Position numbers and translations under genes: made by a program
Notes under the pieces: model-generated
Databases searched by the model: none
Told to the model about the DNA's origin: nothing
The model's input: only the letters and a program-made list of their open reading frames with translations
Origin: an uncultured Acidimicrobiia bacterium
GTDB taxonomy: Bacteria; Actinomycetota; Acidimicrobiia; Spongiisociales; UBA11373
DNA: 64,000 nt
NCBI GenBank assembly: GCA_964614095.1
Contig: CAZTJO010000002.1
Coordinates: 32,043 to 96,042 of the forward strand
Direction: 5' to 3'
Part shown: piece after piece, positions 15,267 to 55,128 of the stretch
Numbering within the stretch: position 1 is the first letter of the stretch
How the letters are laid out: each line of letters opens with the position of its first letter

Positions 15267-15269
15267 CCG

Positions 15270-21640: not shown

Positions 21641-21726
21641 GCCCGGCCCCGCCGGCGGAAGTGGCGGCGACGGCGCTCGTCAAGGTCGGTGAGCGGCCAC
21701 AATGGGGTGGGCGAGCCGGGAGCGGG

Positions 21727-22284
21727 ATGCACGACGGGTTCGATCCATGGGCCGATGACGAGCGGGCCGAGGCTTCCGCGCCGGAAGCGGCCGATATCGA
21801 GCTGCTCGCCATCGAATTCGAGGACGGCCTGCGCGCCCAGGAGGCCCTGATCGCCTCGCTGCGGCTGCACCGGCGCGGGGCTATTCGCCTCGACGACGCT
21901 GCCATTGTGGTAAAGGACCCCCGAGGCAAGATCCGTATCCACCAGACCAAGGATGTGACCCCGGGCCAGGGGGCGATGGCCGGAACCTGGCTGGGCATGC
22001 TGGCCGGCCTGTTCTTTCTGGTGCCGTTTGTGGGTGCAGCACTCGGGGCGGCCATCGGGGGGATCTGGGCCAAGCTGCGGGACATCGGCATCTCCGACCG
22101 GCAGATGAAAGAAATGGGCGAAGAGCTGGCGCCCAAATCGGCGGCACTCTTCCTTCTCCTCGATCCGGCGGCGCCGACAACCCTGGTACGCGAGATGCGG
22201 CGTTTTGACGGCAGGGTGCTGCACTCCACGCTCGACGAGGGCCTCACCTCCGAGATCAGGGCTGCTCTTGATGAGGTGGTGTAG
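21727..22284 (+). CDS. DUF1269-family membrane protein (general stress-type)
   Basis: AIVVKDPRGKIRIHQTKD...GAAIGGIWAKLRDIGISDRQMKEMGEELAPKSAALFLLLD resembles DUF1269. Start chosen at ATG 21727. Confidence 0.6.
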   Translation: MHDGFDPWADDERAEASAPEAADIELLAIEFEDGLRAQEALIASLRLHRRGAIRLDDAAIVVKDPRGKIRIHQTKDVTPGQGAMAGTWLGMLAGLFFLVPFVGAALGAAIGGIWAKLRDIGISDRQMKEMGEELAPKSAALFLLLDPAAPTTLVREMRRFDGRVLHSTLDEGLTSEIRAALDEVV

Positions 22285-23293
22285 TCGATTCTCGGAGAAC
22301 AGTGACGCCGCCGGGCTCGACGGCTAGGCGTATCGTGGTACCCGGCTTGGGGGCGCCCCGCAGCAGGGCTTCGATGACAATGTCACCGGTTTCGATCTCG
22401 ACGAGATAGTCGGTGCCTCTGAAGAGCCGGGAGCGCAACACTCCTTCGATGGGGCCTCTGGGATCGACGGACAAGGCCTCTGGGCGAATGACCAGGCGGG
22501 CTGGCCCCTCGGCGGCATCACGGGGGGCCGGGATGACGCCGAGCGGTGTGGTGGCCCAGCCGCCCTCGATGGTGCCCGGCACCAGGTTTTGCTGGCCGAG
22601 GAATCTGGCCACGGTTTCGTTGGCCGGGCGGGTCCAGACACCTTCCGCGGTCCCTATCTGAAGTATGGAGCCTTTATCGAGCACGGCGACACGGTCGGCG
22701 AGGGTGAATGCCTCGGTCTGATCGTGGGTCACGTAGAGGGCGGTGATGCCGAGACGGGTCAGCAGAGATCTCAACTCGATGCTGAGACGCTCTCGCAGTG
22801 CCCGGTCCAGTGAGCCGAGGGGCTCGTCGAGGAGGAGCATGCGCGGTCCCGGGGCCAGGGCGCGGGCCAGGGCAACTCGCTGCGCCTCGCCACCGGACAG
22901 TGTGCCCATGCGGCGCTTCTCAAAGCCGCGCAGCTCAACCCGTTCCAGGGCTTCGGCGGTGCGCCGCCGGCGCTGCTCGGCGGGAACACCCTGCATGCGC
23001 AGTCCGAAGGCCACATTGCCGGCCACGTCGAGGTGGGGGAACAGGGCGAAATCCTGGAACATGAGCCCGAAGTTGCGCTGATGGGTGGGCACGGTGGTGA
23101 GATCCTCGCCGTTCCAGGTGACACTGCCCGTGTGCAGCGGTTGCAGGCCGGCGACGGCGCGCAACAGGGTGGTTTTGCCCGAACCGCTGGGCCCGAGCAC
23201 GGCCACCACCTCGCCGTCGGCCACCGATATGGAAACGTCGTCGAGGGCCACGGTCTCCGAGAACCGGACGTTGGCGGTGAGCACGGCGAGCAT
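22256..23293 (-). CDS. thiQ: ABC transporter ATP-binding protein (ThiQ/FbpC-type, with C-terminal TOBE-like domain) of the thiamine uptake system
   Basis: Walker [12 protein letters not shown], signature LSGGEAQRVALARAL, Walker B LLLDEPL. ATG overlaps the permease stop (TGATG). The 735-aa track ORF carries a spurious N-terminal extension. Confidence 0.85.
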   Translation of the reverse strand: MLAVLTANVRFSETVALDDVSISVADGEVVAVLGPSGSGKTTLLRAVAGLQPLHTGSVTWNGEDLTTVPTHQRNFGLMFQDFALFPHLDVAGNVAFGLRMQGVPAEQRRRRTAEALERVELRGFEKRRMGTLSGGEAQRVALARALAPGPRMLLLDEPLGSLDRALRERLSIELRSLLTRLGITALYVTHDQTEAFTLADRVAVLDKGSILQIGTAEGVWTRPANETVARFLGQQNLVPGTIEGGWATTPLGVIPAPRDAAEGPARLVIRPEALSVDPRGPIEGVLRSRLFRGTDYLVEIETGDIVIEALLRGAPKPGTTIRLAVEPGGVTVLRESTTPPHQEQP

Positions 23294-39471: not shown

Positions 39472-41022
39472 TCAATCGTCGAAACGAATGTCGCCCGAAG
39501 AGATGCTGATCAGGGTGTCGTTGCCGTCGTGTCCCCAGAGGACGTTGTTGCCGCTGCCGCCTTCGAGAGTGTCGTCGCCACCTCCGCCGTAGAGGAGATC
39601 GTTGCCGGCGTCGCCGTAGAGCAGATCGCCGTCGGTGCCGCCCTCGAGGATGTCGGCGCCGTCCCCGCCCCATACCGTGTCGAAGCCGGTGTCACCGTGG
39701 AGAACGTCGTCGCCCCTGCCGCCTTCGAGGGTGTCGCCTCCCGTGCCCCCGGCAATGTGGTCGTTGCCGTCACCCCCACAGACGACGTCGTCACCGCCGT
39801 GGCCCCAGATGGTGTCGCCCCCGGCGCGCCCGACGATCACGTCGTTGCCCGCTGTGCCGACGAGGAGGTCGGAACTGTAGGTGCCGGCGATGGTGGCGAT
39901 GCGGCCTCGGCACAGCAGTGCGGGCCAATCCGCTGGTGTAGTGACGGCGTTCTCGAACTGGGTCAAGTGGCCCAGACTACGTTCTCGCGAGGCCTGCAGC
40001 TCTGCCTGCCAGGCGCCGGCGCCGTGGGCGAGTGTGTAGTCGATGGGCAGCACAGTCTTGTTCACCGGTTCCACCCAGATGGGGGTGAACTGCACCTCGC
40101 TGACCGCGAACGTGCCATCGGGCTGCTCGGTGACGGTGAGGTGCACAATAACCCCGTCACCTCCGCCGGTGGGTTTGCGGATGTCGGTGAGGAAGTCGCC
40201 CATGCCGTAGACGACCAGCTTGCCGTTGATCCAGTCGATGGGTTGCACAGCGTGGGTGTGGTGGCCGACCAGCACGTCGATGTTGGGGGAGGCGAGAAGC
40301 GTTTCGGCCAGGCGATATTGGTCGTCGGTCGGTTCCACCTGATAACCCTCGCCCCAGTGCAGGCTGACGATGACAAAGGCGGCGCCCTGGTCCCGGGCCC
40401 AGGCGGCATCGGCGAGGATCGCCTCGGCATCGATCACGTTCACCGTCCACTCCGGCTCCTGCATCAGCGGAGGATTTACCTGGATCGAGTAGGCGATGTG
40501 GGCCACGGCGACGCCGTTGAGCACGTGCAGGTTGGGTAAACGCTCTTCCGGTGTGCGGGCGGTACCGGCGTGGTCGACCCCTACACGGTCCAGGACCTCG
40601 ATGGTCTCTTGGAGACCTTCCCAGTCCTCGTCCCAGGAGTGGTTGTTGGCGGTCGAGCAGGTGTCGAAGCCGGCGGCGGCGACGGCATCCGTTATGTCTC
40701 CCGGGCCGTTGAACAGGGGGAAGATCACGCCGGGGGCCTCGTAGACCAGACCGGTGTTGTCCGCCGACAGTGGGCCCTCGATGTGGCAGATGGCGAGGTC
40801 GGCCTCGCTTATCCACGGCTCGATGGCCTCGATCATCGGGGTGAAGTCGTAGCCCGCGCCGCCTGCGTTGCGGGCGGCGATATCGGCCATGCTCCGCATG
40901 ACAAGAATGTCGCCGGCGGCGGCGATGGTGAAAGAACGCGGCTCCGTTTCTGCCGCGGCTCTCGGCGCCACGCCGGCGGCCAGAGTCAACGCGGCGACGG
41001 CAACAAGCGGGCCTCTTCTCAT
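39472..41022 (-). CDS. Secreted CapA-family (PGA_cap metallophosphatase-like) protein fused to C-terminal RTX/hemolysin-type Ca-binding repeats (paralog 1)
   Basis: Sec signal (MRRGPLVAVAALTLAAGVAPRAAA). CapA/metallophosphatase motifs (GDIL..., ADLAICHIEG, NNHSWD, GHHTHAVQPIDW, VVYGMGDF). The C-terminal LLCRG...ATIAGT...DLLVGT...DVIVG block is followed by GGxGxDxhxG nonapeptide repeats. Confidence 0.75.
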   Translation of the reverse strand: MRRGPLVAVAALTLAAGVAPRAAAETEPRSFTIAAAGDILVMRSMADIAARNAGGAGYDFTPMIEAIEPWISEADLAICHIEGPLSADNTGLVYEAPGVIFPLFNGPGDITDAVAAAGFDTCSTANNHSWDEDWEGLQETIEVLDRVGVDHAGTARTPEERLPNLHVLNGVAVAHIAYSIQVNPPLMQEPEWTVNVIDAEAILADAAWARDQGAAFVIVSLHWGEGYQVEPTDDQYRLAETLLASPNIDVLVGHHTHAVQPIDWINGKLVVYGMGDFLTDIRKPTGGGDGVIVHLTVTEQPDGTFAVSEVQFTPIWVEPVNKTVLPIDYTLAHGAGAWQAELQASRERSLGHLTQFENAVTTPADWPALLCRGRIATIAGTYSSDLLVGTAGNDVIVGRAGGDTIWGHGGDDVVCGGDGNDHIAGGTGGDTLEGGRGDDVLHGDTGFDTVWGGDGADILEGGTDGDLLYGDAGNDLLYGGGGDDTLEGGSGNNVLWGHDGNDTLISISSGDIRFDD

Positions 41023-41034
41023 GACGGGTTCACG

Positions 41035-42552
41035 CTAGGGACGGTGGCCGAGCCGTGGCAACAGCGGGGTGCAGGAGACGGGGTCGGCGCCGTCGTGACA
41101 GGAGTCGTCGCCGCCGCCCGGGCGCAGGATGTCATCGGGCAGGACAGCCCACAGCGTGTCGTCACCGGCCCCTCCTTCGAGGGTGTCGTCACCGGCATCA
41201 CCCCACAGGGTGTCGTCGCCGGTGTCGCCAAGCAGGGAATCATCTCCCCGGTCTCCGTAGATGTTGTCGTTGCCGGTCCCGCCGGCGACATGATCGTTAC
41301 CGTCACCGCCGCAGATGAGGTCGATTCCGCTGTGCCCCCAGATGGTGTCGCCCCCGCCGAGCCCGACGATCACATCGTCGTAGGGAGTGCCCACGAGTAG
41401 ATCCGCGCTGTGGGTGCCGATGATGGTGGCCATCTGACCGCGGCACAGCAGCGGGGGCCAATCGGCCGGGGTGGGCTCGGCGTCGGTGAGCAGGGTGAGG
41501 CCGCTCATGGTTCGTTCCCAGGCCGTCTCGAGATCCGAATGCAGCCACTCGGAGCCGTAGGCGAGTGTGTAGGAGATCGGCAGCACCGTCTTCTGCCAGG
41601 TCTCTACCCAGGTGGGGGTGAACTGGACTTCGCTGGTGGCAAAACTTCCGTCGGGCTGCTCGGTGACGGTGAGGTGCACGATGACGCCGAACCCTCCGCC
41701 CGAGGGCCCGCGGATGTTGGAGATGAAGTCACCCATGCCGTAGACGACGAGCTTGCCGTGGATCCAGTCGATGGGCTGCACCAAATGAGTGTGATGGCCC
41801 AGCAGCACGTCAATATCGGGAGAGGCCAGCAGCGTTTCGGCCAGCGACTGCTGAGCGGGGCTTGGCTCCACCTGGTACTGGTCACCCCAATGCAGGCTGA
41901 CCACAACAAACTCGGCGCCCTGGTCTCGGGCCCAGGCGGCGTCGGCGAGGATGGCGTCGGGATCGATGACGTTGACCGACCACGACGGCCGCTGCTGGAG
42001 CCCGGCGTTCATGGAGATGGAATAGGCGATGTGGGCCACGGTGACACCGTTGAGCTCGTGGAGATTGGGGCGCGTCTCCTCCAGGTTGCGGGCGGTGCCG
42101 GCATGGGCCACCCCGGCACGATCCAGCATCACCAGCGTGTCCTCCAGGCCGCGCCAACCGTTGTCCCAGGAGTGGTTGCTGGCGGTGGAACAGGTGTCGA
42201 AGCCGGCGACGGCGATGGCTTCGGCCATCTCGCCGGGGCCGTAGAAGAATGCCGGGTGGTCGTAGCCGATCTGGTAGGAGAGGCCGACGTTGTCCACCGA
42301 CAGCGTGCCCTCGACGTGGCAGATGGCGAGGTCGGCGTCGCCGATCCACGGCTCTATCTGCTCGAACATGGGAGTGAAGTCATATCCGCTGCCGCCGGCG
42401 TTATAGCGGGCCGCGACGGCGACGGCCTCGTGGATGAGGATGTCGCCGGCGGCAGCGATGGTGAACGACCGTGGCTCCGTTCGCGCCGAGGCGCCGGGCG
42501 CAGCAGCGGTGGCGAGGACGAGGGCGGCCAGAGTGGCCTGAGTCCTTCTCAT
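41035..42552 (-). CDS. Secreted CapA-family protein with C-terminal RTX repeats (paralog 2)
   Basis: Same architecture and about 70% aa identity by eye to paralog 1. Start at ATG 42552 (MRRTQATLAALVLATAAAPGASA), analogous to paralog 1. Confidence 0.75.
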   Translation of the reverse strand: MRRTQATLAALVLATAAAPGASARTEPRSFTIAAAGDILIHEAVAVAARYNAGGSGYDFTPMFEQIEPWIGDADLAICHVEGTLSVDNVGLSYQIGYDHPAFFYGPGEMAEAIAVAGFDTCSTASNHSWDNGWRGLEDTLVMLDRAGVAHAGTARNLEETRPNLHELNGVTVAHIAYSISMNAGLQQRPSWSVNVIDPDAILADAAWARDQGAEFVVVSLHWGDQYQVEPSPAQQSLAETLLASPDIDVLLGHHTHLVQPIDWIHGKLVVYGMGDFISNIRGPSGGGFGVIVHLTVTEQPDGSFATSEVQFTPTWVETWQKTVLPISYTLAYGSEWLHSDLETAWERTMSGLTLLTDAEPTPADWPPLLCRGQMATIIGTHSADLLVGTPYDDVIVGLGGGDTIWGHSGIDLICGGDGNDHVAGGTGNDNIYGDRGDDSLLGDTGDDTLWGDAGDDTLEGGAGDDTLWAVLPDDILRPGGGDDSCHDGADPVSCTPLLPRLGHRP

Positions 42553-42594
42553 GACCGGCTCACGGTGGGGGGGCTCGCCGGGTCTGGGCAAGGC

Positions 42595-44082
42595 TCAATG
42601 GACGCAGGGCACGTCTTCGTGGTCGTCAAAGCAAGTGTTGTTGCCACCGCCGCCGACCAGTAGGTCGCTGCCGCCGCCGTGCAGGAGATCATCGTCGGAG
42701 CCGCCCTCCAAGCTGTCGGCGCCATCGTCTCCCCATAGGACATCGGCACCGGTGTCGCCGTGGAGGAAGTCGTCGCCGTCGCCTCCACTGAGGGTATCGC
42801 TGCCGGTGCCCCCGGCAACGTAGTCGTTGCCGCCGCCGCCGCAGATGAGATCATCGCCGCTATGGCCCCAGATGGTGTCGCCTCCGCCGCGCCCGACGAT
42901 CACGTCGTCACCGCTGGTGCCTATCAGCAGGTCGGGCCTTTCAGTGCCGACTATGGTGGCGGCCCGGCCCTGGCACATCACGGGGGGCCATTCCGCCGGG
43001 GTGGGCTCGGCGTCGGTGAGCATGGTGAAGCGGCTCACCGTGTGCTGCCAGGATGCCTCTAGATACGAGTGCAGCTCCTCGGGCCCGTAGGCGAGGCTGA
43101 AGGCCACAGGCAGTATGTCGTAGCCGTGCCAATTGACCCAGGTGGGGGTGAACTGGACATCGCTGGTGGCGAAGCTCCCGTCGGGCTGCTCGGTGACGGT
43201 GAGGTGCACCACCACCCCATCCTCTGTGGCGTAATAGTCGGGGCCGTACACCGGGTTCTGGTTCGAGAGATGATTGCCCATGCCGTAGACGACCAGCTTG
43301 TTGCCTATCCAGTCGATGGGCTGTATCACGTGGGCGTGATGCCCGAGAATGAGGTCGACGTCGGTCGAGGTGAGCAGGATCTCGGCGAGTGCCTGCTGCT
43401 GGGGGGTCGGGGGCGGGTTCCTCTCGGCCCCCCAGTGCAGGCTGACGATGACGAACTCAGCGCCCTGGGCTCGGGCCCAGGCGGCATCGGCGAGGATGGC
43501 GTCGGCGTCGATCACGTTGACCACACACTCGCCGAGTCGTGAGGAGCCGTTGACCCCATATGTGTAGGAGATGTGCCCCACGATGACTCCGTTGACCTCG
43601 TATTTGTTGGGCAGCCGCTCGTCTTCGCTGCAGCCGGTTCCGGTGTGAGGCATGCCCCGGGAGTCGAATACCTCGATGGCCTCCCGGATTCCACGTTCGC
43701 CGCCGTCGGTGGCGTGGTTGCTGGCGAGCGAGCAGTCGTCGTAGCCGGCGGCAGCGATGGCGTCGACTATCTCATAGGGGGCGACGTAGACATAGGGCTC
43801 GAAAGAGAGGTGGGTGTCGTCGACTGAGAGAGCGCTTTCCAGATGACAAATAGCCAGATCAGCCTCACTGATCCACGGCTCTATCGGGGTCAGCATCGGG
43901 GTGAAGTCGTAGCCGTCGCCGCCGGCGTATTGGTGGGCAAAATCGGCTACCCGGCCGTGGATGAGGATGTCCCCGGCGGCGGCGACGGTGAAGGAACGCG
44001 GGGGCTCGGCGGCGCCGGCTGCAGGGGCCGATAGCACGGCACAGACTGCGATCAGGGCCAGCGAGCTAGGCAATCGGGACAT
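42595..44082 (-). CDS. Secreted CapA-family protein with C-terminal RTX repeats (paralog 3)
   Basis: Signal peptide MSRLPSSLALIAVCAVLSAPAAGAA. CapA motifs conserved (GHHAHVIQPIDW). C-terminal Cys-containing junction plus GGxGxD repeats. Confidence 0.75.
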   Translation of the reverse strand: MSRLPSSLALIAVCAVLSAPAAGAAEPPRSFTVAAAGDILIHGRVADFAHQYAGGDGYDFTPMLTPIEPWISEADLAICHLESALSVDDTHLSFEPYVYVAPYEIVDAIAAAGYDDCSLASNHATDGGERGIREAIEVFDSRGMPHTGTGCSEDERLPNKYEVNGVIVGHISYTYGVNGSSRLGECVVNVIDADAILADAAWARAQGAEFVIVSLHWGAERNPPPTPQQQALAEILLTSTDVDLILGHHAHVIQPIDWIGNKLVVYGMGNHLSNQNPVYGPDYYATEDGVVVHLTVTEQPDGSFATSDVQFTPTWVNWHGYDILPVAFSLAYGPEELHSYLEASWQHTVSRFTMLTDAEPTPAEWPPVMCQGRAATIVGTERPDLLIGTSGDDVIVGRGGGDTIWGHSGDDLICGGGGNDYVAGGTGSDTLSGGDGDDFLHGDTGADVLWGDDGADSLEGGSDDDLLHGGGSDLLVGGGGNNTCFDDHEDVPCVH

Positions 44083-44192
44083 ATGCTGTGGCCAACGCTA
44101 CCCGCTGGCAATTCGGCCGCAAGTGGTGTTGACTTGCCCACGTAGGGTGGTTGTGCTCTATTCTTGGTCCTTCGCGACCCGATAGAGGAGAG

Positions 44193-46409
44193 ATGAGGCA
44201 CTTCCCCGCCCTCCGCAAGATTGTTGTGCTCTCGACCGCCATCGCCCTGTTCGGCGTGCTCCCGGCAACGGGCTCCGCCGCCGACGGCGCCTCTGCCGAC
44301 GGCAAGCCGCCGGGGCTGGAATCCCGGCTCTACCGTGCCCAGCTGGCCGTGACCGAGCAGGGTGCGGCGGCCGGCCATGCCCAGGCCGAGGATATGGGCC
44401 TGGAAGTGCAGGCGGGCAAGGTGGTGGTGGAGGTGTATCCCGCCGGCGATCTGGCCGCGGCCATCGACGCGGTAGAGGCCGCGGGCGGAACAGTCGCGTA
44501 TCCCGGTGACGGGCTGGGGTTTGTTGGGGCGCTGGTGCCGATGGGGACACTGATGGCGCTCTCAGAGGATGCCGCAGTGCGCTGGGTGCAGTCCCCGCCA
44601 CAACCGTTTGCCGAGGCAGTGACCGGACAGGGTGTCGCCTTCACCGATGCCGACGACTGGCATGCCGTCGGCATCACCGGCGCCGGGGTCAAGGTTGCCG
44701 TGGTCGATCTGGGCTTCACCGGATACGCCTCGGCGCAGGCGAGCGGAGATCTGCCGGCAACGCTGACCACACAGAGCTACTGCGGCGGCGGCATCGGCGG
44801 GACCACCGCGCACGGAACCGCAGTGGCCGAGATCGTGCATGAGATGGCCCCCGACGCCGAGATCTACCTCATCTGCGTAAGCAACACCGGTCATATCGAT
44901 TCCGCCCTCGACTACATGAACGCCCAGGGCGTCGACATCATCAGCCACTCGGTGGGCTGGTTCAACACCGAGCGAGGCGACGGCACCGGGCCCTTCCTCA
45001 CCCTGTCGAACAAGGCGGAGGGCTACGGCATCGCCTGGTTCAATTCGGCAGGCAACTACGCCGAGCGCCACTGGTCGGGCAACTTCAACGACAGCAACGA
45101 CGGCGACGGCACCCATGAATTCTCCGGTGCCGACGAGCGCAACACCTTCACCCTCGACAGCGGTGATCAGGTCTACGTCTCCCTCAAGTGGGACGAATGG
45201 CCCACATCGAGCAACGATTTCGATCTGTACCTGCTCGACATCACCGGCGGAGGTGGCGTGGTCGACTCGTCTACCGATCCCCAGACCGGCACCCAGCCGC
45301 CGACGGAGTTGATTACCTACACCAATCCGACCGGTGGCACCCGTACCTACGCCGTCGAGATCCGCGAGTTCTCTGCCATGACGACGCCGGACATGGACCT
45401 GTTTGTGCTCAGTCCGGACGATCTGGAGTACCCCGTCACCGCCCGCAGCCTCAACGAGAACTCGACCGTGCCCAACATCTACTCTGCCGGGGCGGTGTGG
45501 TACTTCGATGGCCTGATCGAGGATTTCTCCTCGGAGGGGCCCACCATCGACGGCCGCACCAAACCCGATATCTCGGGGCCCGACGGGGTGGCCAGTTTCA
45601 CCTACGGGTCGTTTGGCGGCACCTCGGCGTCGGCCCCGCACGTCAGCGGCGCCGCGGCCCTGCTGCTGTCGGTGTACCCGTGGATGTCGCCGGCCGAGCT
45701 GCGCGCCGCAGTTTCGAGCCGCACTCACGACGCCGGCCCGGCGGGACCGGATAACGAGTACGGCGTCGGCGTCCTCGATCTGGGCGCTCCACCCGCGGTG
45801 AGCTGCGCCGGGCAGCCGGTCACCATCGTCGGTACGGAGAACGATGACGTCCTCGTCGGCACCGACGGCAGGGATGTGATCGCAGGTCTGGGCGGCAACG
45901 ACCACATCAGTGGTTTTGATGGTGGCGATTTGATCTGCGGCGGTGCCGGCAACGACAGGATCTACGGCGGCAAGGGCAACGACACGATCTTCGGCGACAC
46001 CGGGGTCGACTTGATCTGGGGCAACCAGGGCAAAGACGTGCTCGACGGGGGCAAGGGCAACGACAAACTCATCGGAAGCATGGGACTGGACCGGATCATG
46101 GGCCGCGGTGGAAACGATGTCATCACCGGGAATGCCGGTGACGACGGCCTCCGTGGTGGTGTGGGCGACGATTACATCACCGGCGACGAGGACGACGATC
46201 ACATCTACGGCAACGGCGACGATGACACGCTCAGCGGTGGCGCGGGCAGTGACATTGTCTACGGTGGTCCGGGCAACGATCTGCTGCGCGGCAACAGCGG
46301 CAGTGACGAGCTGTACGGCGGATCCGGGACCGACGTCGACAAGGGCGGAACCGCCTACGACTACTGCACCGAGGCCGTTTCCTACAGGAGCTGCGAGGTC
46401 ATCGGGTAG
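44193..46409 (+). CDS. Secreted S8-family (subtilisin-like) serine peptidase with C-terminal RTX repeats
   Basis: Signal peptide. Catalytic triad motifs D (VAVVDLG), H (HGTAVAEIVHEMAP) and S (GTSASAPHVSGAAALLLS). The C-terminal 190 aa repeat the same junction (VSCAGQPVTIVGTENDDVLVGTDGRDVIAG) and GGxGxD nonapeptides as the CapA paralogs. Good RBS GAGGAG. Confidence 0.85.
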   Translation: MRHFPALRKIVVLSTAIALFGVLPATGSAADGASADGKPPGLESRLYRAQLAVTEQGAAAGHAQAEDMGLEVQAGKVVVEVYPAGDLAAAIDAVEAAGGTVAYPGDGLGFVGALVPMGTLMALSEDAAVRWVQSPPQPFAEAVTGQGVAFTDADDWHAVGITGAGVKVAVVDLGFTGYASAQASGDLPATLTTQSYCGGGIGGTTAHGTAVAEIVHEMAPDAEIYLICVSNTGHIDSALDYMNAQGVDIISHSVGWFNTERGDGTGPFLTLSNKAEGYGIAWFNSAGNYAERHWSGNFNDSNDGDGTHEFSGADERNTFTLDSGDQVYVSLKWDEWPTSSNDFDLYLLDITGGGGVVDSSTDPQTGTQPPTELITYTNPTGGTRTYAVEIREFSAMTTPDMDLFVLSPDDLEYPVTARSLNENSTVPNIYSAGAVWYFDGLIEDFSSEGPTIDGRTKPDISGPDGVASFTYGSFGGTSASAPHVSGAAALLLSVYPWMSPAELRAAVSSRTHDAGPAGPDNEYGVGVLDLGAPPAVSCAGQPVTIVGTENDDVLVGTDGRDVIAGLGGNDHISGFDGGDLICGGAGNDRIYGGKGNDTIFGDTGVDLIWGNQGKDVLDGGKGNDKLIGSMGLDRIMGRGGNDVITGNAGDDGLRGGVGDDYITGDEDDDHIYGNGDDDTLSGGAGSDIVYGGPGNDLLRGNSGSDELYGGSGTDVDKGGTAYDYCTEAVSYRSCEVIG

Positions 46410-51367: not shown

Positions 51368-51823
51368 ATGCGGCTCGACGATATCGACTGGCGAATCCTG
51401 GGTGAGCTACAGCGAGATGGGAGAGTTGGCTTCCGTGAGCTGGGCCGGCGGGTCGGGCTCAGCGCGCCTGCAGTGACCGCTCGGGTGCGCCGGCTCGAAG
51501 AGTCGGGGGTCATCGCCGGCTACCGGGCCGATGTTGACCCGGTACGTCTCGGCCACACGGTGCAGGCGTTTGTTCGTATGAGCGCAGGCGGCCCTCCCGA
51601 CATCGACGAGGAGTTTGTTGCTTATGCCCGGACCATTCCCGAGATCCTCGACGTCTACCGAGTCACCGGCGCGGAAACCTACCTGCTGCGAGTGGTGGTG
51701 GCGACGATGACCGATCTGGAGCGGGTGCTTCGTCCGCTCTGGCGATACGGCGATACCGTCACCGGTGTAGTGATGTCGGTGCCGGTTGCCGACCGGCCCA
51801 TAACCAGGGCCACCGGTGACTAG
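51368..51823 (+). CDS. Lrp/AsnC-family transcriptional regulator
   Basis: HTH LDDIDWRILGELQRDGRVGFRELGRRVGLSAPAVTARVRRLEESGVI plus the C-terminal RAM domain. GAAGGAGGG RBS. Preceded by an AT-rich promoter region. Confidence 0.9.
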   Translation: MRLDDIDWRILGELQRDGRVGFRELGRRVGLSAPAVTARVRRLEESGVIAGYRADVDPVRLGHTVQAFVRMSAGGPPDIDEEFVAYARTIPEILDVYRVTGAETYLLRVVVATMTDLERVLRPLWRYGDTVTGVVMSVPVADRPITRATGD

Positions 51824-51904: not shown

Positions 51905-52387
51905 ATGCGCAGGCTAAGGAAGGCGGAGGATGCCTTCACACTCGTCGAGTTGATGGTGGTAATACTCATCATCGGAGTCTTGGTGGCCGTGGCGACGCCG
52001 GCGTATGTAGGCATTCTCAATCGGGCGCGCCATAGGGAGATGCAGGCCGACCTGCGCTCGGGCCTGATGGCGGTCGAGCTGTACTTCATGGAGAACGGCG
52101 AGTACACCGACGATCCCGTCCAGCTGCAGGCTATGGAACCCGTCGTCGCCTACTACTCGCCCGAACAGCCGGTGGGCACCGTTGCCCTGCGTCTCGGAGC
52201 GAGTCCGGAACACGACGAGATCTGCCTGTTCGGGCAGACGGTCGACGGCGAGTGGTACGCCGCATACCGGTCCGTCGACTCCGCGCCCCTTTTCGGGCAA
52301 GCGGAGCTGCAGGACTGCAGCGCCGACCTTGCCGCCGGCTGGAGCCATCAGGCCTGGGAGGCGGCTCCGAGCGTTTCGCTCATCTGA
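51905..52387 (+). CDS. Prepilin-type N-terminal cleavage/methylation domain protein (type IV pilin/pseudopilin-like)
   Basis: N-terminus MRRLRKAEDA|FTLVELMVVILIIGVLVAVATPAY is a class III signal peptide with Glu+5, although Ala rather than Gly sits at -1. 160 aa. Confidence 0.65.
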   Translation: MRRLRKAEDAFTLVELMVVILIIGVLVAVATPAYVGILNRARHREMQADLRSGLMAVELYFMENGEYTDDPVQLQAMEPVVAYYSPEQPVGTVALRLGASPEHDEICLFGQTVDGEWYAAYRSVDSAPLFGQAELQDCSADLAAGWSHQAWEAAPSVSLI

Positions 52388-52464
52388 AAGAGTCTCACCC
52401 AGTGAGGAATGGCCGTGCCTCGGGGCCCGCCGGGTGGTGGTTGAATGCGGCCGTGCTCGATTCG

Positions 52465-53106
52465 ATGATTGCCCGCATCTACGAACCCGTGCTGGGTCGT
52501 TTGGTCGGCGGGCTGCGCCGGGCCGGGCTCGCCCTCCATCCGCCCAGGCCCGGCCTCAAGGTGCTGGACGTCGGCTGCGGAACCGGTGCCCACCTGTCGC
52601 TCTATGCCGATGCGGGGTGCCGGGTCTGTGGCATTGATGTCTCGGCGGCCATGCTCGATGAGGCGCGGCGGCGCCTCGGCGAGGGTGGCCTGCTCGTGGG
52701 CGCCGATGCCCGTGAGCTGCCTTTTGCCGACGCGGCCTTCGATCTCGTCGTGGCGGTGACTCTGCTGCACGGCCTCCCGGCGGGGGCACGTGTCGGCGCA
52801 CTGGAGGAGATGGCCCGCGTCGCCGGGCGCCGGGGCCGGGTATTGGTCATCGATCATGCTCCTGAGCCGGCACGAGGCTTTGTGACCCGAACGGCGCGGG
52901 CGCTGGGCGTATCGATAGAGGCACTGAGTGGGCACCTTGCCGGCTGCCGATCGTTTTGGGCCGCCGGCGGGGCGCCCGGTCTCGCTCGGGAAGCGGGACT
53001 GGTCGTCGAGCGCCACGAGCCGGCCGCCTACTCGACCTTCGGTGTGTATCTGCTGCGGGCCGCCGGTCCCGTGCCGGCATCCGGCGGCGGCAGGCTGGGC
53101 CCGTAG
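52465..53106 (+). CDS. Class I SAM-dependent methyltransferase (Methyltransf_11/25-like); start uncertain (TTG 52441, GTG 52453 or ATG 52465)
   Basis: VLDVGCGTGAHL motif I, and FDLVVAV motif II-like. Confidence 0.75.
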   Translation: MIARIYEPVLGRLVGGLRRAGLALHPPRPGLKVLDVGCGTGAHLSLYADAGCRVCGIDVSAAMLDEARRRLGEGGLLVGADARELPFADAAFDLVVAVTLLHGLPAGARVGALEEMARVAGRRGRVLVIDHAPEPARGFVTRTARALGVSIEALSGHLAGCRSFWAAGGAPGLAREAGLVVERHEPAAYSTFGVYLLRAAGPVPASGGGRLGP

Positions 53107-53139
53107 ACTTGATTCAGGCGTCGGATCGGACATCGGACC

Positions 53140-53991
53140 ATGCCCCAGGTGGCCACCATCGACTTCCACGTCACCTCGGAGTGCAACGAAGAGTGCGTCT
53201 ATTGCTGGGGCCCGCAGGGAATCGAGGAGGTCGATACCGCGACGGCCGAGGCCATCGTGACCCGCATTGCCGCCAATGGAGCGCGGCGCATCGTGTTCAC
53301 CGGCGGCGATCCGCTCAAGCGGAATGACATCGGATCGCTTATCAAGCTGGCCGGCCGCGTCGGACTTGAGGTGGCCGTCTCCACCACCGGCGACGAGTTG
53401 ACCGCCGAGTTCCTGAAAGAGCACGCCGGGCATATCGACCTGGTCTCGCTGCCGCTCGACGGGCCCAACGAGGAGGTGTCGTCGCGCACCAAAAAGGCCG
53501 GGCATTTCGCTGCGGTGATGCGAGCACTGGAAATGCTGGCTCTCCATCGGGCCATCGACGTCAAGGTGGCGACTCCGGTGACCCGACACAACCTCGACCA
53601 CGTGCCCGACATCGCGACCCTGCTCGACACGCGGGCTGCCGGCATGCCCAACCGTCTCTTCTACAACGTGTTCCAGGCGTTTCCCCGCTCGATGGACGCA
53701 GATGTCCCCTGGGAGGACTTGGTGGTGACCTCCGCCGAGTTCGCCGCCCTTCGGGAGCAGGTGGAGCTGGCACCTCACCGTTTCCGCATCAATTGGCTGA
53801 GCCACGAGACGCTCGACCGGCTGTACGTCATGGTGTTTCCTGATGGCACCCTCACCATTCCGGTCGGCGGCCGGTACGTCGGCTATGGGCCGTTTCTCGA
53901 GGTCGAGGATCTCGATACCGTGCTCGAGCAGGCCTCCTTCGACATCGCCAAACACCTGCTGCACGCTGAGGGCTGGCAACGGTCGGGGTGA
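53140..53991 (+). CDS. Radical SAM enzyme with a single [4Fe-4S] cluster (CX3CX2C; only three Cys in the protein); specific family undetermined
   Basis: TIDFHVTSECNEECVYC (CX3CX2C), IVFTGGDPL (GGE-like motif), VSLPLDG. 283 aa with no SPASM or auxiliary Cys cluster. Confidence 0.8.
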   Translation: MPQVATIDFHVTSECNEECVYCWGPQGIEEVDTATAEAIVTRIAANGARRIVFTGGDPLKRNDIGSLIKLAGRVGLEVAVSTTGDELTAEFLKEHAGHIDLVSLPLDGPNEEVSSRTKKAGHFAAVMRALEMLALHRAIDVKVATPVTRHNLDHVPDIATLLDTRAAGMPNRLFYNVFQAFPRSMDADVPWEDLVVTSAEFAALREQVELAPHRFRINWLSHETLDRLYVMVFPDGTLTIPVGGRYVGYGPFLEVEDLDTVLEQASFDIAKHLLHAEGWQRSG

Positions 53992-54036: not shown

Positions 54037-55128
54037 CTACTCGCCGGCGGGGGCCTCGGGGCGGGACATCCACTGCCGGCCCTGCAGCATCATCTCGGTG
54101 AAGCTCTCGCGGTCGTCGCCGAGGACCCAGCCGGACAACTCGTCGAATTCGCGGCGGAGAGCCTGGTAGAGGTCGGGGGTGAATGGATTGAGCCGCTGGA
54201 TCATGTAGTAGAGCCCGGGGTCCTCTCCGATGACGGTACTGGCCGTCTCCACCTGGGCGTGGAACGTTGTGCTGCCCACCCGATCGAGGCTGGCGAAATC
54301 GGCGTTCCCGCCCATCAGCACCTTGGCAAAAAGCAGGTTGACCAGGTGGGAGAGCCCAAGAACGTAGAGGACCACCCGATCGTGCTCCTCGAGTGACAGC
54401 TCCACGATGGTGGCCGCGGTGTCGGAGAAGAGGTCTCTGACCCGGTGGGCGGCGGCGGTGTCGCCGCAATCGCAGACGCAAATAACCTGGTCCGCCAGTG
54501 TCCGGGTCTCCGGGCCGAACATGGGATGGATGCTCGTCACCGAGAGGCCGGCTTCTCCGGCGTCGGTTATGGCCGGGCGGAGGTGGTCCTTGAGGCTGGC
54601 GATGTCGAAGGCGGTGCCCTGGTAGCCGCAAGAAGCAAGAGAGCCGAGCACCAGGGGCACAGTGTCCGGAGGGGTGGCGATGAGGGCCAGCGATGTTCCG
54701 GCCGTGGCATCTTCGAGGGAGGGGCCGGCGGGATCGGCAGGATCGCTGATCGAGACGTGGTGTCCCTGGTTGCGGAAGAAGTCGACGAACCAGCGCCCCA
54801 TGCGGCCCGCCCCTCCGATGACGGCGATGCTCTCAGCCGAGCCCTGGTAAGTGGAGAAGGAGATGCGCTCCTGCTCGGCCCGGGCCGCAGAGATGAGCAC
54901 CTGCATGAGCGACCGGACGGTGGTCGGGGAGAGGCCGAGCTCGACGGCGCTTTCGGCGGCCCGGTCGAGCACTGCTCGTTCCACCCCCCAGTCGCGCAGA
55001 GGCACGCCGGCCTCTCGCTTCTGGCGGCCGGCGGCGCGCGCCGCCTCGAGTCGCTCGGCGACCAATTGGAGTATCTGCTCGTCGATGCGTCGGATATGCT
55101 CGCGCAGCTCATCAAGCTCGTGTGCCAC
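54037..55128 (-). CDS. tyrA: Bifunctional chorismate mutase / prephenate dehydrogenase (TyrA, T-protein type)
   Basis: N-terminal AroQ chorismate-mutase helix (LDELREHIRRIDEQILQLVAERLEAA). It is followed by the prephenate dehydrogenase Rossmann fold (IAVIGGAGRMGRWF) and the PDH catalytic region (HPMFGPE). GTG start. Confidence 0.85.
   Translation of the reverse strand: MAHELDELREHIRRIDEQILQLVAERLEAARAAGRQKREAGVPLRDWGVERAVLDRAAESAVELGLSPTTVRSLMQVLISAARAEQERISFSTYQGSAESIAVIGGAGRMGRWFVDFFRNQGHHVSISDPADPAGPSLEDATAGTSLALIATPPDTVPLVLGSLASCGYQGTAFDIASLKDHLRPAITDAGEAGLSVTSIHPMFGPETRTLADQVICVCDCGDTAAAHRVRDLFSDTAATIVELSLEEHDRVVLYVLGLSHLVNLLFAKVLMGGNADFASLDRVGSTTFHAQVETASTVIGEDPGLYYMIQRLNPFTPDLYQALRREFDELSGWVLGDDRESFTEMMLQGRQWMSRPEAPAGE

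What the first reader, a model, noticed from the sequence alone, without database searches (positions are those of the whole stretch)
51905..53991. Pilin-like protein, SAM methyltransferase and single-cluster radical SAM enzyme as a co-directional trio
A class III signal peptide protein (atypical Ala at -1) is followed by a class I MTase and a 283-aa radical SAM enzyme. The radical SAM protein has only the CX3CX2C cluster (three Cys in total), a viperin/PflA-sized protein without SPASM. No prepilin peptidase or pilus ATPase is nearby. The grouping could be a modification system acting on the pilin-like protein or an unrelated small-molecule pathway; the function of the radical SAM enzyme is open.
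Basis: partly seen in the sequence, partly recalled or inferred. Interest (0 to 1): 0.5.

Follow-up and report, generated by a model that had tools for sequence, protein, structure and literature searches.

The report
Orphan pilin, methyltransferase, viperin-like enzyme
The three genes are real, but they sit together only in one genus and do not look like a working unit; the one point of interest is that the radical SAM gene belongs to an uncharacterised, highly conserved sister group of the antiviral enzyme viperin.

Summary
All three genes are present as described. They are a type IV prepilin (51905-52387, Ala at -1), a class I SAM methyltransferase (52465/52402-53106) and a 283-aa radical SAM protein with three Cys in total (53140-53991). 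No pilus machinery was found in the window.

The trio is not a conserved unit. It recurs only in near relatives where the whole neighbourhood is syntenic. In 82 loci from four or more phyla the radical SAM gene stands alone among unrelated housekeeping genes. The pilin is genus-restricted. The methyltransferase ortholog is nearby in only 5 loci.

The radical SAM protein has the full viperin fold (pLDDT 93; TM 0.85-0.87 to viperin structures, at most 0.67 to anything else). It fails the curated viperin model (77.6 bits against a cutoff of 180). It also replaces residues that are invariant in the ten viperins compared (three from solved structures, seven annotated prokaryotic): N77D, GGE to GGD, S180P, N222A, K247N, R347H. 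It keeps H79, K120(R), K220 and the catalytic Tyr302. It falls in a sister clade to canonical viperins.

Most likely it is a stand-alone enzyme acting on a phosphorylated, nucleotide-like small molecule, with substrate unknown. A pilin-modification system is unlikely. Interest is moderate to low.

The parts
51905..52387 (+). Type IV prepilin-like protein (160 aa). Class III signal peptide, predicted cleavage after Ala10 (EDA|FTLVE). Cys107/Cys138 pair in the C-terminal part. An orphan with no pilus machinery in the window.
   Evidence: PF07963 at 29.9 bits, TIGR02532 at 25.2 bits, and partial GspG/PilA matches. The orthologs P0122-P0125 have Gly at -1 and the same two Cys. Full-length homologs exist only in 4 close clusters.
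52465..53106 (+). Class I SAM-dependent methyltransferase, UbiE/Methyltransf_11 type, 213 aa from ATG 52465 (234 aa if GTG 52402 is used). Substrate unknown.
   Evidence: Methyltransf_11 at 74.7 bits and Methyltransf_25 at 74.2 bits. All NCBIfam hits are far below their cutoffs; the best is CpaM at 76.6 against 180. Orthologs were found in only 5 of 82 loci. They are adjacent to the radical SAM gene only in the window and L015. In L017, L022 and L040 they lie 1-2 kb away, separated by an acyl-CoA dehydrogenase gene.
53140..53991 (+). Stand-alone radical SAM enzyme with the viperin fold, from a non-canonical clade (283 aa). [4Fe-4S]/SAM site C15-x3-C19-x2-C22 (nt 53182-53205). GGD57 replaces the GGE motif. 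The motif SLPLDG replaces viperin's SCDS. Conserved C-terminal extension ending in KHxxHAxGW.
   Evidence: PF04055. AF2 pLDDT 93.2. Foldseek TM 0.85-0.87 to viperins 6q2p, 9dfw and 7n7h, and at most 0.67 to other families. hhalign against viperins gives probability 99% over the full length. NF038283 scores 77.6 bits against a cutoff of 180. The PADLOC pVip models score 96.5 and 88.5 bits.
51368..51823 (+). Lrp/AsnC-family regulator immediately upstream, co-directional. Context only; it is syntenic with the trio only in close relatives.
   Evidence: HTH_AsnC-type at 66.5 bits and AsnC_trans_reg at 43.7 bits. Same position in L010-L013 and L015.
54037..55128 (-). Bifunctional chorismate mutase / prephenate dehydrogenase, convergent with the radical SAM gene. 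It marks the end of the co-directional run. Context only.
   Evidence: CM_2, PDH_N and PDH_C; NF008400 at 147.9 bits.

Best explanation
The three genes are neighbours by lineage-specific gene order, not a functional system.

**Pilin.** It is an ordinary, fast-evolving orphan type IV pilin. It would need a prepilin peptidase encoded elsewhere. In this strain the -1 Gly has mutated to Ala.

**Methyltransferase.** It is a generic class I small-molecule-type enzyme of unknown substrate.

**Radical SAM protein.** It is a single-gene enzyme of an uncharacterised, very strongly conserved clade that shares the whole viperin architecture: a partial (beta-alpha)6 barrel plus a C-terminal extension.

*Shown:*
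- the fold;
- the CX3CX2C site;
- retention of the viperin positions H79 (H10), K120 (R50), K220 (K142), F249/Q250 (F178/Q179) and the catalytic Tyr302 (Y229);
- replacement of N77 (D8), E127 (D57), S180 (P105), N222 (A144), K247 (N176) and R347, the arginine that hydrogen-bonds the terminal phosphate (H275);
- placement outside the canonical viperin clade in a quick neighbour-joining tree.

*Inferred:*
- It binds one [4Fe-4S] cluster and cleaves SAM to a 5'-deoxyadenosyl radical.
- It abstracts a hydrogen from a phosphorylated, ribose- or nucleotide-like small molecule held by the many invariant basic residues (R50, R116, K118, K142, R172, R183, K271, H272, H275).
- It completes a viperin-type transformation, of the dehydration/reduction kind, with help from Tyr229.
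- Because the residues equivalent to K247 and R347 are changed, the substrate is probably not bound as viperin binds an NTP.
- A PNPOx-type flavoprotein, fused to the enzyme in one Anaerolineales lineage and adjacent in an Ignavibacteria genome, may be its electron donor or a partner reductase.
- It does not act on the pilin.
For: **The trio is not conserved.**
- It recurs with the whole neighbourhood only at 78-81% identity (L010-L013, L015).
- The contexts at L001, L002, L003, L105 and L106 are unrelated.
- All-against-all clustering of ORFs from 82 loci found no neighbour in more than 16 loci. All recurrent neighbours are lineage-specific synteny: ferritin, C39-TPR and HHH-radical SAM in Chloroflexota.
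- Pilin homologs over the full length occur in only 4 close clusters.
- The radical SAM family occurs in 194 species representatives, and the 80 loci returned span at least 4 phyla at 51-80% identity.

**Viperin fold.** Viperins are also the best sequence matches in the PDB: 52 bits, against 31-34 bits for MoaA, PqqE and SkfB.

**Non-canonical status.**
- NF038283 scores 77.6 bits against a cutoff of 180.
- The residue table compares the family with 3 viperins from solved structures and 7 PGAP-annotated pVips.
- The NJ tree separates it from canonical viperins.
- Arg346/Tyr350 of human viperin hydrogen-bond the terminal phosphate, and mutating both to Ala abolishes activity (bioRxiv 10.64898/2026.09.10.750538).
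- A PCET role has been proposed for the active-site Tyr (PMC8124187).

**PNPOx link.**

**No defence or kinase context.**
Against: - The genes are co-directional with short gaps and no detectable terminator, so co-transcription in this organism cannot be excluded.
- A class I methyltransferase of some kind lies within about 5 kb of the radical SAM gene in about 20 of 82 loci. These are three different families sharing only the SAM-binding core. This could reflect a loose functional link rather than chance.
- The two PADLOC pVip models match over the full length (96.5 and 88.5 bits), so an antiviral ddhNTP synthase with a variant phosphate pocket remains possible.
- The substrate inference rests on alignment and a predicted structure only. 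Two positions (R194, R245) align ambiguously between MAFFT and hhalign, and invariant Arg/Lys residues sit 1-3 residues away.
- The NJ tree is midpoint-rooted, has no MoaA outgroup and has no support values.
Confidence: 0.6

Rival explanations
1. The radical SAM protein is a true, divergent prokaryotic viperin. It would be a single-gene anti-phage enzyme that makes a 3'-deoxy-3',4'-didehydro nucleotide chain terminator, and the neighbours are irrelevant.
For: - The PADLOC pVip models match end to end (96.5 and 88.5 bits), and NF038283 is the top NCBIfam hit over positions 3-276 of 281.
- The protein has the viperin fold including the C-terminal extension.
- The catalytic Tyr and H79 are retained.
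- Viperins are themselves highly conserved single-gene enzymes; fungal and mouse sequences score about 345 bits against each other.
- Distribution is patchy across phyla: 194 of about 185,000 species representatives.
Against: - It scores well below the curated cutoff (77.6 against 180).
- It lacks N77, S180, N222, K247 and R347, which are invariant in all 10 viperins compared, and has GGD in place of GGE. The Arg346Ala/Tyr350Ala double mutant of human viperin is inactive.
- It falls in the sister clade in the NJ tree.
- None of the 82 loci has a nucleotide kinase, and the sampled neighbours are housekeeping genes, not defence genes.
- Its position is stable within lineages: ferritin/TPR in Chloroflexota, 2-oxoglutarate dehydrogenase in Gemmatimonadota. 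That points to vertical inheritance in core chromosome, not defence islands.
Confidence: 0.17
2. The methyltransferase and the radical SAM enzyme form a two-step small-molecule pathway, for example radical modification followed by methylation. The pilin would be an unrelated insertion upstream.
For: - The two genes are adjacent and co-directional, 33 nt apart, with no terminator-like site between them.
- Orthologs of the same methyltransferase lie within 1-2 kb in three more distant Acidimicrobiia (L017, L022, L040; 68-72% identity).
- Other class I methyltransferases occur near the gene in L002, L029, L045 and others, and in 9 Chloroflexota loci.
Against: - The window-type methyltransferase is present in only 5 of 82 loci. 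In 3 of them an acyl-CoA dehydrogenase and other genes intervene.
- The three methyltransferase groups are different families, sharing only 88-98 aligned residues of the SAM-binding core.
- Some are on the opposite strand or 4-5 kb away.
- Class I methyltransferases are common enough for this frequency to arise by chance.
- The Gemmatimonadota, Ignavibacteria and BMS3Abin02 loci examined (L001, L059, L090, L091, L105) show none nearby.
Confidence: 0.13
3. The trio is a pilin maturation or modification cassette. The radical SAM enzyme and/or the methyltransferase would modify the pilin post-translationally, perhaps compensating for the atypical Ala at -1.
For: The three genes are co-directional with short gaps. 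The arrangement is conserved in the nearest relatives.
Against: - The close relatives conserve the entire 15-kb neighbourhood, so this is synteny and not selection for linkage.
- The orthologous pilins have the normal Gly at -1, yet the same neighbours.
- The radical SAM family is overwhelmingly found without any pilin.
- It has no SPASM, RRE or peptide-binding domain, and has the fold of a nucleotide-modifying enzyme.
- N-methylation of pilins is done by the prepilin peptidase, not by class I methyltransferases (established knowledge of PilD).
Confidence: 0.04

Closest known systems
Viperin / RSAD2 and prokaryotic viperins (pVips; NCBIfam NF038283, TIGR04278; PDB 6Q2P, 7N7H, 9DFW)
   Same: - Single-domain radical SAM enzyme of about 280 aa with one CX3CX2C cluster.
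- Partial (beta-alpha)6 barrel plus a C-terminal extension that closes the barrel (TM 0.85-0.87).
- Alignable end to end (hhalign probability 99%).
- Shares H79, a basic residue at K120, K220, the xVFQ strand (F249/Q250), the catalytic Tyr302 and a conserved C-terminal Trp.
- Usually encoded as a stand-alone gene.
   Different: - Only 17-26% identity.
- Fails the curated cutoff (77.6 against 180 bits).
- Replaces N77 (D), GGE (GGD), S180 (P, giving the motif LPLDG), N222 (A/C), K247 (N) and R347 (H).
- Branches in a sister clade.
- No kinase partner and no defence-island context; it sits in stable housekeeping neighbourhoods.
- Product and biological role are unknown.
Non-canonical 'LPLDG' viperin-like proteins (e.g. 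E. coli plasmid WP_064562334.1 with deoxynucleoside kinase + NudI; P0170, P0183, P0192)
   Same: They fall on the same side of the NJ tree. They share the S180-to-P substitution (LPLDG motif), a length of about 280 aa and the viperin-like C-terminal half. None of the seven tested against NCBIfam reaches the viperin cutoff, and the E. coli protein is annotated only as 'radical SAM protein'.
   Different: - Only 24-31% identity to the window protein.
- Most keep the KWK(L/V)FQ motif (K247 equivalent), which the window family has lost. Most lack H79, which the window family keeps.
- Several are fused or linked to nucleotide or sugar-nucleotide enzymes: cytidylyltransferase, cupin, kinase + Nudix. 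The window family's only recurrent partner is a PNPOx-like flavoprotein domain.
MoaA / PqqE / SkfB-type radical SAM enzymes (the label given by IMG and Prokka to family members)
   Same: They share the N-terminal radical SAM core (Pfam PF04055, residues about 5-165), giving partial hits of 31-50 bits.
   Different: There is no second or auxiliary cluster, no SPASM domain and no MoaA C-terminal GTP-binding Cys motif. The protein has only three Cys. TM-scores are at most 0.67, against 0.85 or more for viperins. The source labels 'cyclic pyranopterin monophosphate synthase' and 'MoaA/NifB/PqqE/SkfB family' are generic over-annotations.
Type IV pilins / pseudopilins (PilA, GspG, ComGC; TIGR02532 domain)
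   Same: The pilin-like protein has the short basic leader, the FTLVE motif with Glu at +5, a hydrophobic N-terminal helix and a C-terminal Cys pair.
   Different: It has Ala instead of Gly at -1, in this strain only. No equivalog model reaches its cutoff. No assembly genes were found in the 64-kb window.

Membership tests
Viperin family (eukaryotic viperin + pVip ddhNTP synthases) | Score at or above the curated family cutoff (NCBIfam NF038283 viperin_w_prok, 180 bits; TIGR04278, 450 bits) | tested here: not met
   NF038283 scores 77.6 bits, although the match covers the full length (positions 3-276 of 281). TIGR04278 does not appear among the 25 best of 57 matches shown. The family's nearest relatives also fail, at 50-125 bits.
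Viperin family (eukaryotic viperin + pVip ddhNTP synthases) | Partial (beta-alpha)6 barrel with a C-terminal extension closing the active site (architecture as described in bioRxiv 10.1101/2023.09.13.557418) | tested here: met
   The AF2 model has pLDDT 93.2. Foldseek gives TM 0.85-0.87 and rmsd 2.5-2.9 A over about 290 columns to 6q2p, 9dfw and 7n7h. The next family scores at most 0.67.
Viperin family (eukaryotic viperin + pVip ddhNTP synthases) | CX3CX2C cluster motif and GGE SAM-binding motif | tested here: inconclusive
   CX3CX2C is present (C15/C19/C22). The GGE motif is GGD: D57 is invariant in the 56-sequence family alignment, while Glu is invariant in the 10 viperins compared. The substitution is conservative.
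Viperin family (eukaryotic viperin + pVip ddhNTP synthases) | Conserved Arg (mouse R347 / human R346) that hydrogen-bonds the terminal phosphate. In the cited preprint, mutating it together with Tyr350 to Ala abolishes activity. | tested here: not met
   Both hhalign and MAFFT align this position to H275, which is invariant in the family. Arg is invariant in the 3 viperins from solved structures and the 7 PGAP-annotated pVips.
Viperin family (eukaryotic viperin + pVip ddhNTP synthases) | Other active-site residues invariant in validated viperins: N77, S180, N222, K247. Their roles in ribose and phosphate binding are recalled from the 6Q2P literature and were not re-read here. | tested here: not met
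   The family has D8, P105, A144 (Cys in some members) and N176 at these positions. All four are invariant in the 10 viperins compared.
Viperin family (eukaryotic viperin + pVip ddhNTP synthases) | Catalytic Tyr (mouse Y302), H79, and basic residues at K120 and K220 | tested here: met
   Y229, H10, R50 and K142 are invariant in the family alignment and aligned identically by both methods.
Viperin family (eukaryotic viperin + pVip ddhNTP synthases) | Phylogenetic placement within the viperin clade | tested here: not met
   The NJ tree (BLOSUM62 distances, 277 columns, midpoint root) puts the 10 viperins in one clade and the window family with the other 'LPLDG' proteins in the other. This is a quick tree without an outgroup or support values.
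Viperin family (eukaryotic viperin + pVip ddhNTP synthases) | Produces ddhNTP and confers antiviral protection | not testable with these tools
   This needs anaerobic enzymology with LC-MS and phage challenge. Context gives no support: no kinase and no defence neighbours were found.
Type IV pilin / prepilin (TIGR02532, PF07963) | Class III signal peptide: short basic leader, G/A at -1, F at +1, E at +5, and a hydrophobic helix of about 20 residues | tested here: met
   The N-terminus reads MRRLRKAEDA|FTLVELMVVILIIGVLVAVATPAY. PF07963 scores 29.9 bits (cutoff 21.2) and TIGR02532 scores 25.2 bits (cutoff 16.3). The -1 residue is Ala here and Gly in the orthologs.
Type IV pilin / prepilin (TIGR02532, PF07963) | Cognate prepilin peptidase and assembly ATPase/platform in the genome | tested here: inconclusive
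   None was found among about 45 ORFs scanned in the 64-kb window. The rest of the genome is not available.
Radical SAM peptide (RiPP/protein) maturases | SPASM/twitch auxiliary cluster domain or RRE peptide-recognition domain, with a conserved adjacent substrate gene | tested here: not met
   The protein has only three Cys and no SPASM or RRE hit. Matches to SPASM maturases cover only the radical SAM core, residues about 2-165. The pilin is adjacent only in one genus-level clade.
MoaA (GTP 3',8-cyclase) | Second C-terminal [4Fe-4S] cluster (three further Cys) and a score above the TIGR02666 cutoff | tested here: not met
   There are no further Cys. TIGR02666 scores 48.6 bits against a cutoff of 284. 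TM to 2fb2 is 0.63.

The most novel reading that the evidence does not exclude
The radical SAM gene would represent a vertically inherited, chromosomally fixed sister family of viperin with a remodelled phosphate pocket (K247N, R347H, N222A, N77D). It would make a so-far-unknown modified nucleotide or phosphorylated metabolite for a cellular rather than an antiviral purpose, with a PNPOx-type flavoprotein as its dedicated redox partner. If so, it could illuminate what the viperin scaffold did before, or besides, immunity.
Probability: 0.3. Interest if true: 0.6.

Novelty: new variant of a known kind. Interest (0 to 1): 0.3.

Why it matters
The trio as a 'system' does not matter: it is a local accident of gene order. 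The useful result concerns the radical SAM gene.

- **The clade is uncharacterised.** It is a compact, extremely conserved clade (51-80% identity across at least four phyla). It has the complete viperin fold but a different substrate pocket. No curated model captures it, and source pipelines label it MoaA-like.
- **Risk of mis-annotation.** The PADLOC pVip models match it over the full length (96.5 and 88.5 bits). Defence-annotation pipelines may therefore over-call it as an antiviral viperin, which would inflate counts of defence systems in environmental MAGs.
- **Evolutionary angle.** Published viperin phylogenies (read here: bioRxiv 10.1101/2023.09.13.557418 and PMC10732462) root on MoaA. 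Closer non-viperin relatives such as this clade would be better outgroups. They may also reveal a non-immune chemistry of the scaffold.

Tried and rejected
1. **A conserved partner for the radical SAM gene.** ORFs from 82 loci were clustered all-against-all. Only lineage-specific synteny came out.
2. **A pVip-like kinase or Nudix partner.** A phmmer search with the E. coli plasmid deoxynucleoside kinase and NudI against all flanking ORFs gave no kinase and one weak Nudix hit.
3. **A PNPOx-like gene in the window.** tblastn found none.
4. **Viral structural relatives (BFVD).** Only generic radical SAM hits appeared, with TM at most 0.66.
5. **The afdb50 fold library.** It was unavailable.
6. 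**Primary viperin structure papers and Bernheim 2021.** They are not held in the library. The roles of N77, N222 and K247 therefore rest on invariance in my alignment plus memory. Only R346/Y350 and the catalytic Tyr are cited from papers I read.
7. **'Class-wide housekeeping gene of Acidimicrobiia'.** I considered this after seeing more than 1000 close homologs. I rejected it because only 194 of about 185,000 species representatives carry the gene, and they span several phyla.
8. **P0160/P0162 as an informative sister family.** They turned out to be divergent orthologs in the same Chloroflexota synteny.
9. **Source names and accessions.** The cluster look-up gave none.
Full report
**Observation**

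The window is a 66% G+C core-chromosome segment. It carries NusA, IF-2, TruB and PNPase at 1-9.5 kb and a Pol III alpha-family (DnaE-type) polymerase at 36-39 kb. Its closest relatives are Acidimicrobiia MAGs.

- **51905-52387** encodes a 160-aa prepilin, MRRLRKAEDA|FTLVELMVVILIIGVLVAVATPAY. It matches PF07963 at 29.9 bits and TIGR02532 at 25.2 bits, both above their cutoffs. It also gives N-terminal matches to GspG, PilA and ComGC.
- **The next ORF** is a class I SAM methyltransferase (Methyltransf_11 at 74.7 bits). Alignment with orthologs puts its start at ATG 52465 rather than the upstream GTG 52402.
- **53140-53991** encodes a 283-aa radical SAM protein (PF04055 at 70.9 bits). Its only three cysteines form CNEECVYC.

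Gaps between the genes are 14-81 nt. No terminator-like site lies between them. Pfam scans of about 45 ORFs across the window, plus the annotated syntenic locus L010, show no prepilin peptidase, pilus ATPase or platform protein.

**Is the trio a unit?**

The radical SAM protein has over a thousand close homologs. I looked at gene neighbourhoods at increasing distance.

- **At 78-81% identity** (L010-L013, L015) the trio is present. So is everything else, from the S8/RTX peptidase and L-2-hydroxyglutarate-oxidase-like gene upstream to TyrA, the PG-binding protein and the ABC transporter downstream. That is plain synteny.
- **At 65-72% identity** the gene sits between unrelated genes: MscS/SLH in BMS3Abin02, M28 peptidase and a hypothetical in L002, YbaK and an SDR in L003.
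- **Across GTDB species representatives**, a scan found the family in 194 species. Of the 80 loci returned, Acidimicrobiia members are 63-80% identical to the window protein, Anaerolineales 56-65%, Gemmatimonadota 57-67% and Ignavibacteria 51-52%. One MAG is labelled Deltaproteobacteria.

I called ORFs in 82 loci and clustered them all-against-all.

- No neighbour occurs in more than 16 loci.
- Every recurrent neighbour is confined to one lineage. In Chloroflexota these are ferritin, a C39-TPR protein and an HHH-radical SAM protein. In Gemmatimonadota it is 2-oxoglutarate dehydrogenase E1.
- The window-type methyltransferase is found in 5 loci only. It is adjacent in the window and L015. In L017, L022 and L040 it lies 1-2 kb away, behind an acyl-CoA dehydrogenase gene, and no pilin precedes it there.
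- Two other methyltransferase groups seen near the gene in other lineages share only the SAM-binding core with it.
- The pilin has full-length homologs in just four clusters at 70-73% identity. Beyond those, only the generic N-terminal helix matches.

**The pilin**

The four orthologs read EQG|F, EEG|F, EDG|F and EEG|F. The Ala at -1 is thus a derived single-base change in this lineage. It is present on several independent contigs, so it is not a sequencing error. From memory of the Pseudomonas PilA mutagenesis literature, Ala is the one substitution at -1 that still allows some cleavage. I did not verify this here. Nothing suggests the pilin needs its neighbours.

**What the radical SAM protein is**

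*Sequence matches.*
- The best NCBIfam hit is the viperin model NF038283. The match runs end to end (3-276 of 281) but scores only 77.6 bits against a cutoff of 180.
- The PADLOC pVip models give 96.5 and 88.5 bits over the full length.
- In the PDB, viperins are the top sequence hits: 42 bits with the single sequence and 52 bits with a family profile, against 31-34 bits for MoaA, PqqE and SkfB.

*Structure.* An AlphaFold2 model built from a 56-sequence family alignment is confident (pLDDT 93.2, pTM 0.92). Foldseek places it on mouse viperin with CTP (6q2p, TM 0.85), Trichoderma virens viperin-like enzyme (9dfw, 0.87) and Nematostella viperin-like enzyme (7n7h, 0.86), over about 290 columns. 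There is a clear gap to DesII, SkfB, SuiB and MoaA, at 0.67 or below. The protein therefore has the whole viperin architecture, including the C-terminal extension, as described in bioRxiv 10.1101/2023.09.13.557418.

**Membership test**

*Reference sequences.* I recovered verified sequences of mouse, Nematostella and T. virens viperins from the PDB search output. I also took seven PGAP-annotated 'viperin family antiviral radical SAM proteins' from plasmids of Nostoc, Thiodictyon, Methanomethylovorans, Sulfitobacter, Pseudoalteromonas, Acinetobacter and Treponema.

*Alignment.* A profile-profile alignment gave probability 99% over the full length. A 29-sequence MAFFT alignment agrees with it on the positions below.

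| Mouse viperin position | Window family | In the 10 viperins |
|---|---|---|
| H79 | H10 (retained, invariant) | invariant |
| K120 | R50 (retained as basic) | K or R |
| K220 | K142 (retained) | K, once R |
| F249 / Q250 | F178 / Q179 (retained) | variable |
| Y302 | Y229 (retained) | invariant |
| N77 | D8 (replaced) | invariant |
| E127 of GGE | D57 (replaced) | invariant |
| S180 | P105 (replaced; motif SLPLDG) | invariant |
| N222 | A144 or C (replaced) | invariant |
| K247 | N176 (replaced) | invariant |
| R347 | H275 (replaced) | invariant |

*Why these positions matter.* A 2026 preprint reports that human Arg346 and Tyr350 hydrogen-bond the terminal phosphate of the NTP. It also reports that the Ala double mutant is inactive (10.64898/2026.09.10.750538). 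The active-site Tyr is proposed to act in proton-coupled electron transfer (PMC8124187, PMC9642334).

*Ambiguous positions.* R194 and R245 align differently in the two methods. The family has invariant R116/K118 and R172 within 1-3 residues of them.

*Tree.* A quick NJ tree puts all ten viperins in one clade. The window family falls in the other, together with other 'LPLDG' proteins.

*Family boundaries.* An exhaustive HMMER search of 1.84 billion cluster representatives shows the family is compact. Only 20 representatives score at E of 1e-30 or better, and most of those are fragments. Identity then drops to about 30%. None of the relatives tested, including the next ones at about 30% identity, reaches the viperin cutoff either.

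I therefore do not file it as a viperin. It works on the same scaffold but has a different pocket.

**Clues to function**

*Context.* Sampled neighbours are housekeeping genes: PHP, an alpha/beta hydrolase, TctC, acyl-CoA dehydrogenase, ferritin and 2-oxoglutarate dehydrogenase. No nucleotide kinase occurs in any of the 82 loci. By contrast, the Nostoc pVip sits next to a deoxynucleoside kinase. A non-canonical E. coli plasmid relative sits in an operon with a deoxynucleoside kinase and NudI.

*The PNPOx link.* This is the only recurrent functional hint.
- A PNPOx_N domain is fused to the N-terminus of the family in one Anaerolineales lineage (P0158; L062 in UBA4826).
- A homologous stand-alone PNPOx gene lies divergently adjacent in an Ignavibacteria genome (L090; 60 bits).
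- A different PNPOx-family gene lies one gene away in three Acidimicrobiia loci.
- The window has none.

A flavin- or deazaflavin-binding partner could supply electrons to the cluster or reduce an intermediate. This is inference.

*Inheritance.* The stable, lineage-specific positions argue for vertical inheritance in core chromosome rather than defence-island mobility. The patchy distribution (194 species representatives) and the very high cross-phylum identity remain unexplained. Viperins themselves are similarly slow-evolving.

**Verdict**

The finding is a correct description of three real genes, but they are not a system.

- The pilin is an ordinary orphan pilin with a derived Ala at -1.
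- The methyltransferase is generic.
- The radical SAM protein is the only item of interest. It belongs to an uncharacterised, strongly conserved sister clade of viperin with a remodelled phosphate-binding pocket.
- Most likely it is a stand-alone enzyme acting on a phosphorylated small molecule. A variant antiviral viperin is the main rival (about 0.17).
- Novelty is 'new variant of a known kind'. Interest is about 0.3. It is worth a biochemical test, and it is a caution for pipelines that would label it either MoaA or pVip.

Noticed in passing
L095 5980-7977 (E. coli plasmid NZ_CP045714.1, record 20793-22790): A non-canonical viperin-like radical SAM protein is annotated only as 'radical SAM protein'. 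It is 28% identical to the window protein and carries the same 'LPLDG' motif. It forms an apparent operon with a deoxynucleoside kinase and NudI, flanked by toxin-antitoxin modules on an IncF plasmid. It looks like an unrecognised pVip-like nucleotide-modifying defence cassette.
   Followed up: partly
L062 5931-7262 (Anaerolineales UBA4826) and P0158; L090 6373-6771; L002 9437-9988: A PNPOx_N (split-barrel flavoprotein) domain is fused to the N-terminus of this radical SAM family in one Chloroflexota lineage. A homologous stand-alone PNPOx gene is divergently adjacent in an Ignavibacteria genome. A different PNPOx gene lies one gene away in three Acidimicrobiia loci.
   Followed up: partly
P0192, P0183, P0234, P0198, P0226 (distant relatives): The wider non-canonical viperin-like group shows varied domain fusions: a cytidylyltransferase-like domain, a cupin, and a response-regulator receiver plus PRTase-CE. 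Two proteins of about 6000 aa match the viperin-like domain (their domain content was not scanned). The scaffold appears to be used in many nucleotide or conflict-type contexts.
   Followed up: no
window 51932-51934 (codon for residue 10 of the pilin): The -1 residue of the class III signal peptide is Ala (GCC) here. It is Gly in all four orthologous pilins (70-73% identity). This is a lineage-specific substitution at the peptidase cleavage site, seen on several independent contigs.
   Followed up: yes
window 39472-46409: Three tandem paralogs of about 500 aa each combine a PGA_cap (CapA-like) domain with C-terminal RTX calcium-binding repeats (39472-41034, 41035-42594 and 42595-44097, all on the - strand). 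They are followed by an S8 subtilase with RTX repeats (44151-46409, +). This is a cluster of probably secreted RTX-tailed enzymes.
   Followed up: no
L103 and L104 7001-7894 (P0311, P0318; the P0160/P0162 group): A Chloroflexota subgroup of the family is 45-47% identical to the window protein. It occupies the same syntenic slot (ferritin, C39-TPR, HHH-radical SAM, NurA/DUF87). It has lost otherwise invariant residues: His10 to Gln in P0160, Trp23 to Thr or Ala, and the YNVFQ strand motif to VDIYQ/LDIYQ. This suggests relaxed or changed function.
   Followed up: partly
window 15267-17552: A single stop-to-stop frame carries a 5-formyltetrahydrofolate cyclo-ligase domain followed by all four phosphoglucomutase/phosphomannomutase domains. 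This may be two adjacent genes in the same frame rather than a fusion.
   Followed up: no
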